A stretch of DNA of 64,000 nucleotides from the NCBI GenBank assembly GCA_937867305.1, contig CALMKJ010000022.1:23258-87257 (forward strand), written 5' to 3'. The notes under the pieces were generated by a model, which saw only the letters and a program-made list of their open reading frames with translations, made no database searches and was not told the origin of the DNA. Positions 1-6,182 of the stretch are shown one piece after another. The stretch's first letter is position 1. Every line of letters starts with the position of its first letter. The translations under genes were made by a program, and so were the position numbers. Source of the stretch: an uncultured Ectothiorhodospiraceae bacterium (GTDB lineage Bacteria > Pseudomonadota > Gammaproteobacteria > JAABTG01).

Positions 1-645
1 TGCGGTCGCGAAGGGATTCGCCTCCCGCGCCCGCGCCAGGAGCGTCTGCACCACTTCATGGACCGGCAGGCCCCGGGGCACGTCGACCCCGAAAAAGGAA
101 CCCGCCTGCTGGGCGGCGATGAGTATCGCCGCGCCCGCGGTGAAGCCCAGGACCACGGAGTGCGAAATGAAGTTGGCGAGCGCCCCCAGCCGGGCGAGGC
201 CCATGGCCAGCTCGATCGCCCCCACCAGGAGGGTCAGCGTCAGCGCGAGGCGGACATAGTCGGCGCTGCCCGGCTCAGCCAGGCCGCTCAGGCTGGAGAA
301 GAGGACGATGGAGGCGGTCGTGGTCGGCCCGGACACCAGGTGCCAGGAGGAGCCCCAGAGCGCAGCCACGATGGCCGGCACCATCCCGGCGTACAGCCCG
401 TACTCCGGGGGCATGCCGGCCACGGTGGCGAGGGCGACCCCCTGGGGGAGCACGACGACGGCGCCGGTGAGACCGGCTGCCAGGTCAGAGCGCAGGGACC
501 GGGCGTCGACCCGCTCACGCCAGGCGAGAAAGGGGAACAGCCTTGCGAGCCAGCGAGACCCGTGCCGGTGGCGGACGCCGGTGGGGCCGGGTGAGGGGGC
601 GGGTGAGGGGCCGGCAGACTGCCCCTCGCGGGAGGAATGGGTCAT
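1..645 (-). CDS. SulP/SLC26 family anion (sulfate) permease, 5' part (runs off the window)
   Basis: Manual translation from ATG at 645 (absent from the ORF track): RWLARLFPFLAW...DLAAGLTGAVVVLPQGVALATVAGMPPEYGLYAGMVPAIVAALWGSSWHLVSGPT, the SulP signature; GGAGAG upstream. Confidence 0.92.
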   Translation of the reverse strand, partial: MTHSSREGQSAGPSPAPSPGPTGVRHRHGSRWLARLFPFLAWRERVDARSLRSDLAAGLTGAVVVLPQGVALATVAGMPPEYGLYAGMVPAIVAALWGSSWHLVSGPTTTASIVLFSSLSGLAEPGSADYVRLALTLTLLVGAIELAMGLARLGALANFISHSVVLGFTAGAAILIAAQQAGSFFGVDVPRGLPVHEVVQTLLARAREANPFATA

Positions 646-767: not shown

Positions 768-796
768 TTGCCTGCCGGCGGGTGTCCCTATAGCCT
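768..796 (+). promoter_or_regulatory. possible sigma70 promoter for sor
   Basis: TTGCCT-17 nt-TAGCCT, 150 nt upstream of the sor ATG. Confidence 0.35.
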
Positions 797-945
797 TGGC
801 CCCGAGAGTCTTCGAGCGACCCGCGCGGTGTACGGGGCATCCCCCGGCGGGGCAGTTCGCCGCGACCCGCCGCAACCGCGAGCAGGGTGGTGCCGGTCTC
901 CGCGGGGCCGGCGGTGTGAGTCGACCCCAAATGAGGGAGCAGCTG

Positions 946-1986
946 ATGGCACACAAGAGCAGCGATCTGGAGCGCAGGAAATTCCTCAAGATGACCGCCA
1001 TGGCGGCTGGAGGTGCGACGATGATGGGTGTGAGCGGGCGGACTGTGGCGGCCCCGCAGGCGCTGGACGAGCCCGACAGCCCCATCTATCTCGCCCTGAA
1101 TATCTCTCGGGTACTCAACAACGAAGAGAGCTTCCGACTGATGCGCGAGGTCGGGCCGAAGGTGTGCATCACCACGGCATCCCACCCCGGTTTCCTGGGC
1201 TTCCAGGCCAACGTGCAGACCGGTGCCATGTCCATTGCGGGCCGCTACGGCGGGGCCAGGGTGGACATGGACAAGGAGCTCAACCCCATCGGGAACTACC
1301 AGTACACCATGTGGAAGACGTGGCAGGACCACGATGACTTCCACAGCCGGCAGTTCAAGCGGGTCTTCGAGCTCTGCACGGCGTGCCTGCCCACCGTGGT
1401 CGAGGGACCGTGGGAGCCGGTCTACCGGGTCGTCAGGGCGAAGATCCCCCAGGTCCGCTCCATGGGCGAGATCACGAAGCTCGCCCAGGACCTCCAGCAG
1501 GGCAAGGATTTCGTGCGCTTCGCCACCCCGGGTCGCTGCGTCACGCTGGCTCCCCACACGGTCAAGCCCGGGGCGGAGGCCGCCTTCGAGAAAGGGGTGG
1601 TGGACACCCTGGAGGCCCTCTCGGATTCCACGGGGTTCCTGGGCTACATGGTGCTCAAGCAGATGGGGGTCTGCGCCCTCGGCAGCCTGATGCTGGACCC
1701 CGAGTCCATGGCCCAGGCCCTGATGACGCTGGGCGCCAACCCGCCGGACAACCCCAGGCCGGCCTTTGCCACTCCCGACGCCCGGCCCACCCCGCCGGAC
1801 TACCTGGTGCACACGGAGTGGGATTCGCCCGAGCTGGCCAAGCTCGGTTTCGCCAAGGTCCTGGTCAACCACCGGATCCGGAAGATCCACGACGATGGGG
1901 TCATGGCGCACCTCATCAAGGGCCCCTACATCAAGTTCTTCCGTCCCATGATGGAAGAGCCCGGCTGGCGCGACCATCTGCGCTGA
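946..1986 (+). CDS. sor: sulfur oxygenase reductase (SOR) family protein with Tat signal peptide
   Basis: VGPKVC, HPGFLGFQ, RYGGA, QYTMWK, HDDFH (H-x3-H), CTAC (CxxC) and GPWEP motifs of SOR; N-terminal ERRKFLK plus hydrophobic stretch; RBS GAGGGA before ATG 946. Confidence 0.92.
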   Translation: MAHKSSDLERRKFLKMTAMAAGGATMMGVSGRTVAAPQALDEPDSPIYLALNISRVLNNEESFRLMREVGPKVCITTASHPGFLGFQANVQTGAMSIAGRYGGARVDMDKELNPIGNYQYTMWKTWQDHDDFHSRQFKRVFELCTACLPTVVEGPWEPVYRVVRAKIPQVRSMGEITKLAQDLQQGKDFVRFATPGRCVTLAPHTVKPGAEAAFEKGVVDTLEALSDSTGFLGYMVLKQMGVCALGSLMLDPESMAQALMTLGANPPDNPRPAFATPDARPTPPDYLVHTEWDSPELAKLGFAKVLVNHRIRKIHDDGVMAHLIKGPYIKFFRPMMEEPGWRDHLR

Positions 1987-2004: not shown

Positions 2005-2039
2005 CGGGCGGGCCCTGCCCACGCGGTGGGGCCCGCCCG
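2005..2039 (+). terminator. GC-rich stem-loop after sor (no U-tract)
   Basis: CGGGCGGGCCC (2005-2015) / GGGCCCGCCCG (2029-2039) perfect inverted repeat. Confidence 0.4.
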
Positions 2040-2114: not shown

Positions 2115-2318
2115 ATGGCAACCCGCAAGCCCAACTACGCATTCGAGCGCAACCAGCGCACCAAGGCCAAGGCCGCCAAACGCCAGGCCAAACAACAGGC
2201 GAAAACGGAGGCGAGGCGCCGCGAGACTCCGGGCGAGCCGGCGGGTGCCCCATCCGCAGACCACGAGTCCGGCAGCGACGCGGCCGAGGACGAGGGTGGG
2301 GAGTCCGAGGGCGCGTAG
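2115..2318 (+). CDS. small hypothetical protein, basic N-terminus and acidic tail
   Basis: GAGGAG RBS; MATRKPNYAFERNQRTKAKAAK... resembles a small K-P-N-Y-x-F-E-[KR] protein type. Confidence 0.7.
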   Translation: MATRKPNYAFERNQRTKAKAAKRQAKQQAKTEARRRETPGEPAGAPSADHESGSDAAEDEGGESEGA

Positions 2319-3494: not shown

Positions 3495-3797
3495 TCAAGC
3501 GGCAGGCTCGGCAAGCTCCTCGACCCACTCGAAGCCGATCTCCCAGGCGTGGCCGTCCTGGTCGGCCCAGGTCTGGAACGACTCCCGGGCCTCCAGCAGT
3601 ACGTGCCGGCCCGGCGTGTGCCACTCCGGCTCCGGAACGTCGTCGTCGCAGGTGAACCCGACGGGCAGGCGTTGCGCAGTGACCGCCAGCTTCAACGCCT
3701 CCTCGCGGCTCGGCGCCTCGAGTAGCGCGTGATAGGTCTCCGCCAGGCCCCGGCCTTCCACGTCGCGGTAACTTGCCCAGATGCTCCAGCGTCTCAT
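3495..3797 (-). CDS. hypothetical protein (about 100 aa, Trp/acidic-rich)
   Basis: Protein-like composition and GC3-biased codons; start uncertain, no family recognised. Confidence 0.6.
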   Translation of the reverse strand: MRRWSIWASYRDVEGRGLAETYHALLEAPSREEALKLAVTAQRLPVGFTCDDDVPEPEWHTPGRHVLLEARESFQTWADQDGHAWEIGFEWVEELAEPAA

Positions 3798-4119
3798 GTC
3801 GGTGCGCTCGAATGGATGCCGACTCTCCCGATGCAACAACCGTGCACGGGGTGCCGAGAGGCCGCAATCACAAGGGGATGAGCCGTTCCTCCCTACGCTG
3901 TGTCGGCTCGCCCGTCAACTGTCTCGACAGCGCGTGCGCCCTGACCGGTCCAATCTGTGAAGGCCCTCACGGAGATCGGGGCATTTCCGGGCGCTCATCG
4001 GAAAACTTGACACGTGCTCGACGCCTTTTCAACTCCAGAGAACCTTTCAAGTCAACTGGTTCTGGAATGCATCTCAGATGAATTAGTATGGTCCAGGGTG
4101 GGTGACGGAGGGCGCGAGG

Positions 4120-4542
4120 ATGGCTGAAGGTGTTTCCCGCTTTTCCGCCGGGGTGGTCGTCCTGCGCCGGCAGGGGGAGACCTGCCGCTTCCTCCTCCTG
4201 CGTTCCTTCCGCTACTGGGACTTCCCGAAGGGTCAGGTGGAGCCGGGCGAGGAGCCCATCGACGCCGCCCGTCGCGAGGTGAGGGAGGAGACGGGCATCA
4301 CGGACCTGGATTTCCGCTGGGGGTTCGACTACCGGGACACCCCACCGTATGGGCGCGGCAAGGTGGCCCGTTACTACGTGGCGGAGACCGCAGAGCACCA
4401 CGTGACGCTCCCGGTGAACCCCGCACTCGGCCGTGCCGAGCACGAGGAGTTCCGGTGGGTGACCCGGGCCGCCGCGCGCGACCTGGTGGTCCCGCGGGTC
4501 GCCGCCATCCTGGACTGGGCGGTGTCCGTCGCCGGGTGCTGA
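4120..4542 (+). CDS. Nudix hydrolase (asymmetric Ap4A hydrolase-like)
   Basis: WDFPKGQVEPGEEPIDAARREVREETG Nudix box; SAGVV N-terminus; EH..FRW. Confidence 0.9.
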   Translation: MAEGVSRFSAGVVVLRRQGETCRFLLLRSFRYWDFPKGQVEPGEEPIDAARREVREETGITDLDFRWGFDYRDTPPYGRGKVARYYVAETAEHHVTLPVNPALGRAEHEEFRWVTRAAARDLVVPRVAAILDWAVSVAGC

Positions 4543-4640
4543 CCGGGCTCCCGGGTCGCGGGCTCGCCCGCACCGGTGCCGCCCCGGCAGGTGACCCGCC
4601 GGACGGCGCCGCAATGTCCTCCCGCCCTGGTTGAGAGGAG

Positions 4641-6182
4641 CTAGACTGCCCCGGCCCCGGCCGCTGGCGATTCCGCTGCCGCTGCCGGTCCGGGGGCTGC
4701 GGCGGGCCCCGGGGCCGCCGTCGCCCCGGGTGCCTCCACCCCGGACGGATTGGTGAAGCGGTCGTTCAAGCTCTGCACGTAGCGGTCCGCCTCGGCGAGA
4801 ACCGTGGCGAGTCTCCGGCGGGCGCGCTTGCCCCAGCCCGCCGGACGGGTGAAGAAGATCGAGCGCCAGGGGGCGGTGTTGCGCGCGAACGCTTTGCGCA
4901 GGGACTCCCGGGTGAGCAGGTGCGGGATGTCGGCGCCGAGCCGTTGGCCGATGCGCCGGGCGTGCACGCGCCGGGCGGTGAAGTGGGCGTACAGCGCCAG
5001 GGCAAGCGCGGCCAGCACCCCGAGCGCGGTCCCGAGGGTCCGGGCGAGAGGTACCTCGCCGCTGCGCCACGCATCGAGCGAGACGTTCTGCCAGAAACCC
5101 GTGTACAGGCCGAGGGCCAGGCCCAGGACCAGGAGGACACCGGCAATGGCGGCGTCGGTCCAGAGCACCCGGCGCTTCCAGGTCTCCTTGGCCTGGCGCA
5201 AGCGAGGCACCCAGTCGCCCTCGATGTTCTTCGCGGTCTTCTCCAGCACGCCCACGAGCCGGTAGGCGCGCTCCACCTCGACCTGGCGCATGCGGCCGTG
5301 GATCTCGGCCAGGTCCTGGTCGCGCTTGGCCTCGAAGCGCTGGCGCCTGACCGGGTCCTCGATGGGCACGGCGGCCTCGGGGCTGTAGATCCGGTAGAAG
5401 CGGCCGGCGGTGAGGCCGCGCTGGCCGAGGGCCCGCTGCCAGGCCGCAAACACCTCCTCGGGATTGTCCTCGCGCGCCGCGGTGTCGATCTGGTTCAGGA
5501 CGTAGAGGAACTTGTTGGAATCCGGCCGGTGGAAGGTGTTGGTGACCAGGTGCTCGAGGGTGTCCTGCATCGCCCCGGGCTCGGGGTGCCGGGCGTCGAA
5601 GAAGACCAGCACCAGGTCCGAGAGGTCCATGATGTGGTCGGTGATCCGCAGCGTCGACGTGCGCTGGGCATCGGCGTCGAATCCCGGGGAGTCGATCAGG
5701 ATCTTGCCCTTCAGTTTCTCGCTGGGGCAGGTCTTCAGCTGGAGGTAGGCGTCGACCCGCCGGCCCTCTCCGGTCGCGACGGCCTCGATGTCGGCGCTCA
5801 CCTGGTAGAAGGGGAAGCGCGGGTCGGCGTCGAGCGAAAGCCCGGGCAGGACGCGGCTCGTGCCGTCGTTGCTGTAGGTGATCACGGTGAACTTGTCGTC
5901 CACCGCCTGGTTCCCCGTGGACTGCAGCCGGGCCCCGAGGTAGTTGTTGATGAAGGTCGACTTGCCCGAGGAAAAGGTGCCCAGGACGGAGATGAGCGGC
6001 CACCAGGAGACCCGCGTGGCGTAGGACTCATCGCGATCGAGCAGTCCGAGGCGGTAGGCTACGGCGTCCAGCTCGCGGAAGCTGTGCACCGACTCGAGGA
6101 GGACCGGGTTCTCCCGCTCCAGGTGGTGCTCCAGGCTGCGGATGCGCTGCTCGATCGGACGGGGTTCGGCGGCGTGGCTCAT
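4641..6182 (-). CDS. dynamin-superfamily (EHD-like) P-loop NTPase with C-terminal TM hairpin
   Basis: GTFSSGKS P-loop, LIDSPG, NQID; two hydrophobic segments near the C-terminus. Confidence 0.85.
   Translation of the reverse strand: MSHAAEPRPIEQRIRSLEHHLERENPVLLESVHSFRELDAVAYRLGLLDRDESYATRVSWWPLISVLGTFSSGKSTFINNYLGARLQSTGNQAVDDKFTVITYSNDGTSRVLPGLSLDADPRFPFYQVSADIEAVATGEGRRVDAYLQLKTCPSEKLKGKILIDSPGFDADAQRTSTLRITDHIMDLSDLVLVFFDARHPEPGAMQDTLEHLVTNTFHRPDSNKFLYVLNQIDTAAREDNPEEVFAAWQRALGQRGLTAGRFYRIYSPEAAVPIEDPVRRQRFEAKRDQDLAEIHGRMRQVEVERAYRLVGVLEKTAKNIEGDWVPRLRQAKETWKRRVLWTDAAIAGVLLVLGLALGLYTGFWQNVSLDAWRSGEVPLARTLGTALGVLAALALALYAHFTARRVHARRIGQRLGADIPHLLTRESLRKAFARNTAPWRSIFFTRPAGWGKRARRRLATVLAEADRYVQSLNDRFTNPSGVEAPGATAAPGPAAAPGPAAAAESPAAGAGAV

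What the first reader, a model, noticed from the sequence alone, without database searches (positions are those of the whole stretch)
946..1986. Sulfur oxygenase reductase with a twin-arginine (Tat) export signal
Seen: all SOR catalytic elements are present (VGPKVC = Cys31 equivalent of Acidianus ambivalens SOR, H-x3-H and GPWEP Glu iron ligands, CxxC). They follow a roughly 35-aa extension with ERRKFLK, a Gly/Ala hydrophobic stretch and a VAA cleavage-like site. Established: characterised SORs are mostly cytoplasmic 24-mer hollow spheres. From memory, a Tat-type SOR was described in Thioalkalivibrio paradoxus (needs checking), so the feature is rare rather than unique. Inference: this organism oxidises or disproportionates S0/polysulfide in the periplasm, and the cage must assemble after export or be smaller.
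Basis: partly seen in the sequence, partly recalled or inferred. Interest (0 to 1): 0.75.

Follow-up and report, generated by a model that had tools for sequence, protein, structure and literature searches.

The report
Exported (Tat-signal) sulfur oxygenase reductase
An oxygen-respiring, sulfur-oxidising bacterium common in wastewater encodes a complete sulfur oxygenase reductase that carries a conserved export signal, so this enzyme, always described as working inside the cell, most likely works in the periplasm here.

Summary
Window 946-1986 (+) encodes a 346-aa protein that matches the SOR family end to end (Pfam PF07682, 444 bits). The catalytic Cys, the H-x3-H and Glu iron ligands and the CxxC are all present. 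About 36 residues of twin-arginine signal (ERRKFLK) precede the enzyme and pass NCBI's curated Tat model.

The signal is not chance and not a mis-called start. Seventy of the 120 closest metagenomic protein clusters carry it, as do 21 of 75 full-length SOR genes from named species genomes. A same-genus genome keeps this ATG while the DNA upstream loses frame.

The host is an uncultured gammaproteobacterium with TatC, SoxB/SoxY, FccB, RuBisCO and two haem-copper oxidases. No DsrA, SoxC or AprA was found. Best reading: iron-loaded subunits are exported by Tat and act on zero-valent sulfur made in the periplasm.

The enzyme belongs to an uncharacterised SOR clade found mainly in Desulfobacterota genomes, 46-48% identical to the studied bacterial SORs. 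Among 401 sampled gammaproteobacteria, only this genus has the exported form.

I found no paper that describes an exported SOR. This scan flagged the same kind of gene before, in a Desulfobacterota genome (e1-3223547). Export, activity and oligomeric state are untested.

The parts
946..1986 (+). SOR precursor gene, 346 codons plus TGA
   Evidence: Searches give the ORF. Pfam PF07682 scores 444 bits. The best solved relative is 6qpa_A at E 2e-93. GC3 is 0.89 for the extended ORF 796-1986, like the neighbouring genes.
933..939 (+). Shine-Dalgarno-like GAGGGAG, 6 nt before ATG 946
   Evidence: Read from the sequence. A GGAGG core is kept in the same-genus genome although the flanking bases differ.
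946..1053 (+). Predicted Tat signal peptide, residues 1 to 35 or 36. It has an n-region, ERRKFLK (nt 970-990), a Gly/Ala/Thr/Met h-region, Arg32 and TVAA.
   Evidence: TIGR01409 scores 18.9 bits against a cut-off of 16.7. RR sits at the same offset (index 9) in most orthologues. Compared with the same-genus copy there are 6 synonymous and 3 non-synonymous codon changes. The cleavage site is inferred, not predicted by a dedicated tool.
1084..1971 (+). SOR catalytic domain (residues 47-342). Cys74 is at nt 1165-1167, His129 at 1330-1332, His133 at 1342-1344, Cys144 at 1375-1377, Cys147 at 1384-1386 and Glu157 at 1414-1416.
   Evidence: all six residues invariant in 23 sequences.
2005..2039 (+). 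G+C-rich hairpin with a 15-bp stem, 19 nt after the stop codon and without a U-tract. It is a possible transcript end or stabiliser.
   Evidence: strand folding on 1987-2060 gives -47 kcal/mol, z -2.84, and 0 of 200 shuffles fold as well. The terminator scan did not call it because there is no T run.
768..794 (+). Candidate promoter: TTGCCT, a 15-nt spacer, then TATAGC. This is weak.
   Evidence: The block is conserved in the same-genus genome. The 5'-most ends of short metatranscriptome contigs lie at 812, 823 and 833 in three studies. The consensus scan found no sigma-70 site. This part is inference only.
1..645 (-). Divergently transcribed SulP-family anion transporter. The full gene is 620 aa and runs past the window start.
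   Evidence: Pfam Sulfate_transp. The full length carries Sulfate_transp plus STAS. TIGR00815 sulP matches. The pairing is kept in the same-genus genome. A functional link is not shown.

Best explanation
The gene encodes a functional sulfur oxygenase reductase made as a precursor with a cleavable twin-arginine signal. Inferred mechanism: the subunit, or the dimer that I recall as the family's building block, folds and takes up its mononuclear iron in the cytoplasm. TatABC exports it and signal peptidase cuts near Ala35/Ala36. The mature protein, essentially a full-length SOR, then works in the periplasm, where it may assemble into a larger oligomer. There it uses O2 to convert zero-valent sulfur or polysulfide to sulfite, with sulfide and thiosulfate as side products. 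In this organism that sulfur is produced in the periplasm by FccAB and by a Sox system without SoxCD. The products can re-enter Sox and FccAB or be moved by anion transporters. Shown here: family membership, intact catalytic residues, a curated-model Tat signal conserved across orthologues, the start codon, and the presence of TatC and the periplasmic sulfur enzymes. Shown with caveats: the gene appears in RNA libraries. Inferred: export itself, the cleavage site, the substrate source and the oligomeric state.
For: Family and residues. Tat signal: TIGR01409 is above its cut-off. Of the RR-bearing orthologue clusters, 60 of 70 also reach the cut-off, against 0 of the 50 others (my count from the output). 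Presequence length (42-46 aa) and RR offset are conserved.

Start codon: the same-genus genome keeps the ATG and the coding frame. A 1-nt indel and many substitutions lie just upstream, and the in-frame ATG at 931 is not conserved.

Machinery and host: TatC is present. BamA, Skp and LpxABD mark a diderm. The same motif type sits on the hydrogenase small subunit, Mo-enzymes, FccB and SoxY of this genome.

Physiology: two haem-copper oxidases, SoxB at 844 bits, SoxY and FccB and RuBisCO are present. No DsrA, SoxC or AprA was found in a genome rated 100% complete.

Expression hint: short contigs from three metatranscriptome studies cover nt 812-1285 and beyond, including the signal-coding part.
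Against: No export, cleavage, activity or oligomer data exist, and no dedicated Tat or signal-peptidase predictor could be run. Pro37 directly after VAA is unfavourable for cleavage there.

Ten of 70 RR-form orthologue clusters fall below the TIGR01409 cut-off. The protein scores 306.6 bits on NCBIfam's SOR equivalog model, whose cut-off is 400. The whole clade scores 287-327 bits, so equivalence of function with studied SORs is not certified.

The roughly 15-nm 24-mer of studied SORs (recalled size) is far too large for Tat, so the exported form must differ at least in when it assembles. Three conserved Cys would sit in an oxidising compartment.

RNA-library contigs can contain DNA, and the long X14 contigs probably do. 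The AlphaFold model was unusable, with pLDDT 43. An sHdr-type pathway was not recognised but is not excluded.
Confidence: 0.75

Rival explanations
1. The Tat signal is used but not cleaved. The enzyme stays tethered to the periplasmic face of the inner membrane by its N-terminal helix, as I recall for Rieske proteins.
For: Pro follows the VAA motif. No cleavage predictor was run.
Against: The h-region is weakly hydrophobic (mean Kyte-Doolittle 0.73 over 16 residues) and rich in Gly, Ala and Thr. Orthologues have clear AxA motifs at the aligned place, such as AQA, ANA and ARA.
Confidence: 0.1
2. The twin-arginine extension is a relic or has another cytoplasmic role, and the enzyme stays in the cytoplasm like the studied SORs.
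For: All characterised SORs are described as acting in the cytoplasm (passages read in PMC6335251, PMC12345210 and PMC7398979). Signal-less forms 66-75% identical exist in the same clade.
Against: RR, the hydrophobic stretch and the length are conserved in 70 protein clusters. Synonymous changes outnumber non-synonymous ones between the two species of the genus. One locus where the signal has decayed (L016) shows what a relic looks like.
Confidence: 0.06
3. The enzyme is exported, but its main role is not energy metabolism. It scavenges O2 or detoxifies reactive sulfur at the cell envelope. That role would also make sense in the anaerobes that hold most relatives.
For: Most relatives lie in Desulfobacterota, Chloroflexota and similar genomes. 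SOR genes of this clade often sit beside peroxiredoxin, catalase, desulfoferrodoxin, rubrerythrin, MsrB or DJ-1 genes. From passages read, PMC12345210 states that SOR reactions do not allow energy conservation.
Against: The host here is an aerobe with Sox, FccB and RuBisCO and no other recognised S0-oxidising system. The neighbourhood evidence comes from other organisms and was not tested statistically.
Confidence: 0.2
4. The start is downstream or upstream of ATG 946, and the RR stretch is not part of the protein as made.
For: The open frame extends up to TTG 796 and holds another ATG at 931.
Against: Both upstream starts would still include the RR motif. No in-frame start lies between 946 and the RR. 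The next ATGs encode Met16 and Met19, and starting there would leave a hydrophobic stub. A Shine-Dalgarno sequence sits 6 nt before 946. Orthologues start 8-12 residues before RR. The same-genus genome loses frame upstream.
Confidence: 0.02

Closest known systems
Halothiobacillus-type bacterial SOR (PDB 6qpa, 24 chains; identified by its 674-bit match to a Halothiobacillus MAG protein)
   Same: Same fold family, alignable over residues 45-346. The catalytic Cys, H-x3-H, Glu and CxxC are the same (E 2e-93).
   Different: Only about 48% identical. It has no N-terminal signal. It lies in a different clade of the tree. The solved entry holds 24 chains, whereas the oligomer of the exported form is unknown.
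Acidianus ambivalens SOR (PDB 2cb2 and mutants), the reference enzyme
   Same: The active-site residues align with a constant offset of 43, using AaSOR numbering Cys31, His86, His90, Cys101, Cys104 and Glu114 (recalled). The positions I recall as lining the hydrophobic 'chimney' (Met130, Phe133, Phe141) are Met173, Ile176 and Leu183 here, by my reading of the 6qmv (A. ambivalens-like chain) alignment.
   Different: It is archaeal, thermoacidophilic and cytoplasmic (E 3e-75). It scores as an NCBIfam equivalog by definition, whereas this protein does not (306.6 of 400 bits).
Signal-less SOR-family proteins of Syntrophales, Smithellaceae, Anaerolineales and similar MAGs (for example P0086, P0108, P0119)
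   Same: Same clade. They are 66-75% identical in the mature part and share all catalytic residues.
   Different: They lack the 35-residue signal, and the upstream frames were checked back to the previous stop codon. None is characterised.
Tat-signal SOR of a Desulfobacterota genome noted earlier in this scan (e1-3223547)
   Same: Same architecture and the same closest solved relative. It shares 26 of 90 short words with this protein.
   Different: Its host is a presumed anaerobe. Here the host is an aerobic, CO2-fixing, Sox-bearing gammaproteobacterium.
Tat-exported periplasmic sulfur and redox enzymes of the same genome (FccB, SoxY, Mo-oxidoreductases, NiFe hydrogenase small subunit)
   Same: Same type of signal and the same export route, suited to proteins that fold or bind cofactors before export.
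   Different: The protein families and chemistry are unrelated.

Membership tests
Sulfur oxygenase reductase (Pfam PF07682; EC 1.13.11.55) | Full-length match to the family profile | tested here: met
   444 bits, E 2.5e-133, profile positions 2-300 of 300.
Sulfur oxygenase reductase (Pfam PF07682; EC 1.13.11.55) | Essential active-site cysteine (AaSOR Cys31; numbering recalled) | tested here: met
   Cys74 in VGPKVC, invariant in 23 of 23 aligned sequences. It aligns with the solved chains.
Sulfur oxygenase reductase (Pfam PF07682; EC 1.13.11.55) | 2-His-1-carboxylate iron site (AaSOR His86, His90, Glu114; numbering recalled) | tested here: met
   His129, His133 and Glu157, invariant in 23 of 23.
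Sulfur oxygenase reductase (Pfam PF07682; EC 1.13.11.55) | Second cysteine pair CxxC (AaSOR Cys101/Cys104; numbering recalled) | tested here: met
   Cys144 and Cys147, invariant in 23 of 23.
Sulfur oxygenase reductase (Pfam PF07682; EC 1.13.11.55) | NCBIfam equivalog score (NF047630, cut-off 400 bits) | tested here: not met
   306.6 bits. All 120 clade relatives score 287-327 bits. It is therefore a family member, but not certified as functionally equivalent.
Sulfur oxygenase reductase (Pfam PF07682; EC 1.13.11.55) | O2-dependent conversion of S0 to sulfite, thiosulfate and sulfide | not testable with these tools
   Needs the purified protein.
Sulfur oxygenase reductase (Pfam PF07682; EC 1.13.11.55) | Hollow 24-subunit sphere | not testable with these tools
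   The monomer model failed (pLDDT 43). No complex job was sent, because a pass would only mirror the solved homologues.
Twin-arginine (Tat) export substrates | Consensus S/T-R-R-x-F-L-K near the N-terminus (consensus recalled) | tested here: met
   E-R-R-K-F-L-K at residues 9-15.
Twin-arginine (Tat) export substrates | Curated Tat signal model TIGR01409 above its cut-off | tested here: met
   18.9 bits against 16.7.
Twin-arginine (Tat) export substrates | Moderately hydrophobic h-region, a basic residue in the c-region and a signal-peptidase site | tested here: inconclusive
   The h-region has mean hydropathy 0.73, and Arg32 is present. VAA is followed by Pro, so TVA/A is the alternative site. 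No dedicated predictor was available.
Twin-arginine (Tat) export substrates | Tat translocase in the same genome | tested here: met
   TatC PF00902 at 234.5 bits on contig C204.
Twin-arginine (Tat) export substrates | Signal conserved in orthologues | tested here: met
   The signal is present in 70 of 120 clusters, 21 of 75 species genes and the same-genus copy.
Twin-arginine (Tat) export substrates | Tat-dependent export shown experimentally | not testable with these tools
   A bench test is needed.

The most novel reading that the evidence does not exclude
In this aerobic sulfur oxidiser, which lacks recognisable Dsr, SoxCD and sHdr routes, the exported SOR is the main enzyme that oxidises zero-valent sulfur. 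After Tat export of iron-loaded subunits it self-assembles into a 24-subunit reaction chamber in the periplasm. That would be an extracytoplasmic protein nanocompartment, and it would remove the need to bring insoluble sulfur into the cytoplasm.
Probability: 0.2. Interest if true: 0.85.

Novelty: new variant of a known kind. Interest (0 to 1): 0.62.

Why it matters
SOR is taught as a cytoplasmic cage enzyme, and how insoluble sulfur reaches it has never been settled. An exported form would place the enzyme where Sox and FccAB deposit sulfur. It would also raise a concrete assembly problem, because a cage of the recalled size cannot pass through Tat. A further question is what an O2-dependent sulfur enzyme does outside the cytoplasm of the many anaerobes that carry it.

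This host is an aerobe found in wastewater, river and biofilm metagenomes from 13 studies. Several of those runs may be the source of this DNA. It therefore offers a more tractable physiological setting than the anaerobe versions, and the gene could matter for sulfur-cycle models in engineered systems. Genome surveys that score SOR as a 'cytoplasmic S0 oxidation' marker would need a second category.

Tried and rejected
The AlphaFold2 model built on the 23-row alignment had mean pLDDT 43 and pTM 0.35. It was unusable, so no fold search was run.

Three papers are not held, so their statements on signals and localisation are unseen: Ruhl et al. 2017 (by DOI and by PMC5287398) and Veith et al. 2012 (PMC3264067).

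Literature searches for an exported SOR found nothing on the point. I read passages in 7 papers. The search for '6QPA' found 0 papers.

YeeE/YedE transporter genes lie next to SOR in 6 of 21 Tat loci and also in 10 of 41 signal-less loci. The link is therefore not specific to export.

Residues that separate Tat forms from signal-less forms in the mature part: only five columns differ by 0.6 or more in frequency, mostly extra Lys or Arg, with no extra Cys. No adaptation can be claimed.

A single origin of the signal is undecided. The free tree needs 5 changes, of which at least 2 are forced by starred branches. A tree holding all 22 Tat rows together is not rejected (p-AU 0.089).

The sigma-70 consensus scan found no promoter in 600-2400. 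Its one terminator-like hit, at 704-720, lies upstream of the gene.

Stretches of the window with no short RNA contigs, such as 524-811 in X15-X17, are not evidence of silence.

The 'same genome' notes returned by the search of earlier findings describe an actinobacterial conjugative element. They do not fit this Gram-negative contig and were not used.

No complex-prediction job was sent.

Full report
**What is there**

Window 946-1986 on the + strand is an open frame of 346 codons. It matches the Pfam SOR family over the whole profile: PF07682, E 2.5e-133, 444 bits, residues 47-342 against positions 2-300 of 300. The closest solved structures are all SORs. The best is 6qpa_A (E 2e-93, query residues 45-346 against chain residues 5-313), followed by the Acidianus enzymes at about E 3e-75. 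A Halothiobacillus MAG protein matches 6qpa at 674 bits, so 6qpa is a Halothiobacillus-type SOR.

They are Cys74 (VGPKVC), His129 and His133 (HDDFH), Glu157 (GPWEP), and Cys144 and Cys147 (CTAC). All are invariant in a 23-sequence alignment of relatives.

**The N-terminal extension**

Homology to solved SORs begins at residue 45-48, so about 44 residues precede the enzyme core. Residues 8-26 hit NCBI's curated Tat signal model TIGR01409 at 18.9 bits, above its cut-off of 16.7. The sequence reads MAHKSSDL-ERRKFLK-MTAMAAGGATMMGVSG-R-TVAA-PQALDEPD. This gives a short polar n-region, a consensus twin-arginine motif, a weakly hydrophobic Gly/Ala/Thr/Met stretch (mean hydropathy 0.73), a basic residue and a small-residue motif. 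No dedicated predictor was available.

**Start codon**

The frame is open back to TTG 796 and holds an ATG at 931, but ATG 946 has a GAGGGAG six bases upstream. In the same-genus genome G004 the protein is 97% identical and starts MTHKSSDLERRKFLK. The DNA alignment shows a 1-nt indel and dense substitutions just upstream of the ATG, no counterpart of ATG 931, and a retained GGAGG. Within the 36 signal codons the two species differ by 6 synonymous and 3 non-synonymous codon changes, as expected for a translated, constrained segment. Either upstream start would still include the RR motif.

**More than chance**

In the window's own genome I screened 4105 candidate ORFs. A strict RRxF[LIVM][KR] motif with an uncharged hydrophobic stretch occurs at 8 N-termini. 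One is the SOR. The rest are a NiFe hydrogenase small subunit, three molybdopterin-enzyme proteins, FccB and a DUF882 peptidase present on two contigs. SoxY and an Fe/Mn superoxide dismutase carry looser versions.

**Conservation elsewhere**

The protein search returned 295 relatives, of which the best 120 were listed. Seventy of these 120 have the RR motif at the N-terminus and are about 345 aa long. The others are about 310 aa, or are truncated. By my count, 60 of the 70 reach the TIGR01409 cut-off and none of the other 50 does.

In one-genome-per-species contigs, 114 stretches encode a relative and 80 were kept. Of these, 75 are full-length and 21 have the signal. Eighteen of the 21 are labelled Desulfobacterota or 'Deltaproteobacteria', two Proteobacteria/Pseudomonadota and one Myxococcota. 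For the signal-less genes I read the frame back to the preceding stop and found no signal. Presequence length (42-46 aa) and RR offset are nearly fixed.

**Phylogeny**

In a quick maximum-likelihood tree of the mature parts (76 rows; 5 truncated loci left out), the window's protein lies in a 63-row clade with L001 as sister (SH-aLRT 96). That clade is separate from the classical Halothiobacillus, Acidithiobacillus, Thiomonas and Sulfobacillus SORs, which are 46-48% identical. The Tat label needs 5 changes on the free tree. However, a tree with all 22 Tat rows together is not rejected (p-AU 0.089), so one or several origins remain open. The whole clade scores 287-327 bits on NCBIfam's SOR equivalog model, whose cut-off is 400. 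None of its members appears among the solved or, as far as I could read, the characterised enzymes.

**The host**

The window carries rpsB-tsf-pyrH-frr-uppS-cdsA-dxr-rseP-bamA-skp-lpxD-lpxA-lpxB-rnhB-dnaE-accA at 70.8% G+C. Its DnaE is 67-68% identical to those of Thiohalobacter, Thiohalophilus and an Ectothiorhodospiraceae isolate, with closer unnamed metagenomic relatives. The genome is 2.80 Mb in 222 contigs, rated 100% complete with 4.1% contamination.

| Feature searched in the genome | Result |
|---|---|
| SOR gene | one copy |
| TatC | present |
| Haem-copper oxidases | two |
| SoxB | present, 844 bits |
| SoxY, FccB | present |
| RuBisCO | present |
| DsrA | not found |
| SoxC | not found |
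| AprA | not found |

Its CCG-domain proteins form an HdrA-HdrA/MvhD-HdrC-HdrB cluster and a GlcF-like protein, not the two-HdrB layout I recall for sHdr. I did not recognise an sHdr system, but I cannot exclude one.

**Distribution among relatives**

In the small order that holds this genome, 5 of 7 genomes have an SOR-family gene, of three kinds:
- The two Tat-SOR genomes are G000 and G004, in the same genus.
- Genus g3 has classical signal-less SORs, 45-48% identical.
- G005 has a 31% identical SOR-like gene.

In an even sample of the class, 14 of 401 genomes have a hit. Of the 11 loci newly fetched from that sample (outside this order), none has a signal. Five are classical and six belong to a distant family, 31-33% identical. 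The exported form in this genus therefore looks acquired from the anaerobe-centred clade. The gene's codon composition is like its neighbours' (GC3 0.89), so the acquisition is not recent.

**Neighbourhood**

The gene stands alone. A divergent 620-aa SulP/STAS anion transporter lies upstream, and this pairing is kept in G004. Downstream lie a 15-bp G+C hairpin, a 67-aa basic ORF without family and a DmeF-type CDF transporter.

In other genomes, split YeeE/YedE sulfur-transporter genes flank SOR in 6 of 21 Tat loci and 10 of 41 signal-less loci. A 483-aa protein with a 5'-nucleotidase C-terminal domain, and oxidative-stress genes, also recur. These fit a sulfur and oxygen context for the clade, but they do not distinguish exported from cytoplasmic forms.

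**Occurrence and expression**

Nineteen public runs from 13 studies hold the stretch, 15 of them with half or more of its sampled words. They come from wastewater, river, biofilm, manure and digester samples, and six are RNA libraries. Thirteen of the DNA runs are marked as possible sources of this DNA, so they are not all independent support.

I laid four RNA runs from three studies on the window. Short contigs cover 812-1091, 823-1285 and 833-979, plus later parts of the gene, so they include the signal-coding region. Their 5'-most ends (812, 823, 833) lie just downstream of a conserved TTGCCT-N15-TATAGC block at 768-794. This is a weak hint of a start site, and it would exclude TTG 796 as the initiation codon. 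The long contigs of run X14 span several genes and may be DNA.

**Mechanism**

The best-supported reading is export by Tat of a folded, probably iron-loaded subunit or dimer, followed by cleavage and action in the periplasm. There FccAB, and a Sox system without SoxCD, generate zero-valent sulfur, by established knowledge of those pathways. The studied 24-mer (about 15 nm, recalled) cannot cross through Tat. Either assembly follows export or the exported form is a smaller oligomer. The positions I recall as forming the hydrophobic entry channel in the Acidianus enzyme remain hydrophobic here (Met173, Ile176, Leu183, by my reading of the alignment). This says nothing decisive.

The rivals are a membrane-tethered uncleaved form, a relic signal, a mainly protective O2-scavenging role, and a wrong start. 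They are listed with their odds in the Rival explanations section.

**Literature**

Six searches and passages read in seven papers turned up no description of a signal-bearing or periplasmic SOR. Reviews and surveys call the enzyme cytoplasmic (PMC6335251, PMC12345210). The Bohai Sea survey found 33 of 39 SOR-bearing MAGs to be Desulfobacterota without commenting on signals. The scan itself noted the same architecture earlier in a Desulfobacterota genome (e1-3223547), and my results agree with that note.

**Verdict**

This is a real feature, and a new variant (new compartment) of a known enzyme family. It is rare, but it is shared by a sizeable uncharacterised clade. This window places it in an aerobic, autotrophic, Sox-bearing gammaproteobacterium where a physiological role can be proposed and tested.

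Noticed in passing
G000 contig C204:12749-13477 (-), locus L093 (outside the window): An Fe/Mn superoxide dismutase carries a Tat-like leader (GRRHFLL followed by a hydrophobic stretch). This suggests a second iron enzyme exported in folded form in the same organism.
   Followed up: partly
L016 (Desulfonema MAG), upstream of the SOR core at about 4177-5205: The SOR gene nests among Tat forms, but its leader has decayed (NRKHFKKK and no hydrophobic stretch). It looks like a recent loss of the export signal.
   Followed up: no
Loci L003, L011, L014, L018, L024, L064 (Tat) and L028, L030, L032, L033, L034, L040, L042, L045, L047, L050 (no signal): Split YeeE/YedE (PF04143) sulfur-transporter gene pairs lie directly beside SOR genes of the anaerobe-centred clade.
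   Followed up: partly
Loci L017, L028, L034, L037, L040, L045, L051: A protein of about 483 aa with a 5'-nucleotidase C-terminal domain follows SOR. I recall that SoxB belongs to this superfamily. It may be a conserved partner of unknown role.
   Followed up: no
Loci L010, L021, L025, L036, L038, L044, L048, L053, L063: Oxidative-stress genes sit next to SOR genes in presumed anaerobes. They include rubrerythrin, AhpC, MsrB, catalase, DJ-1/PfpI, cytochrome c peroxidase and desulfoferrodoxin. This hints at an O2-defence role.
   Followed up: no
L086 (G005, same genus) and L104-L109 (six other gammaproteobacteria): A distant SOR-like family, 31-33% identical and without a signal, passes the Pfam SOR cut-off at about 195-218 bits. 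Its core starts EPKSPLYVAINRV in L104-L107 (L108 and L109 differ by one residue there). Its function is unknown.
   Followed up: no
window 2115-2318 (+): A 67-aa Lys/Arg/Ala-rich ORF lies between the SOR hairpin and the CDF transporter gene. It has no NCBIfam match. RNA contigs touch the area.
   Followed up: no
window 3495-3839 (-) and 4641-6182 (-): One is a 114-aa ORF with high GC3 and no family hit. The other is a 513-aa dynamin-family GTPase with C-terminal membrane segments and a Pro/Ala-rich tail.
   Followed up: no
G000 contig C134:848-5885, locus L098: An HdrA, HdrA/MvhD, HdrC, HdrB gene cluster is present in a genome where neither AprA nor DsrA was found. Its partner pathway is unclear.
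   Followed up: partly
The search of earlier findings, scope genome: All five notes filed under 'same genome' describe an actinobacterial conjugative element. That does not fit this Gram-negative gammaproteobacterial contig. The cause may be contaminant contigs (the bin is rated 4.1% contaminated) or an index mismatch.
   Followed up: no
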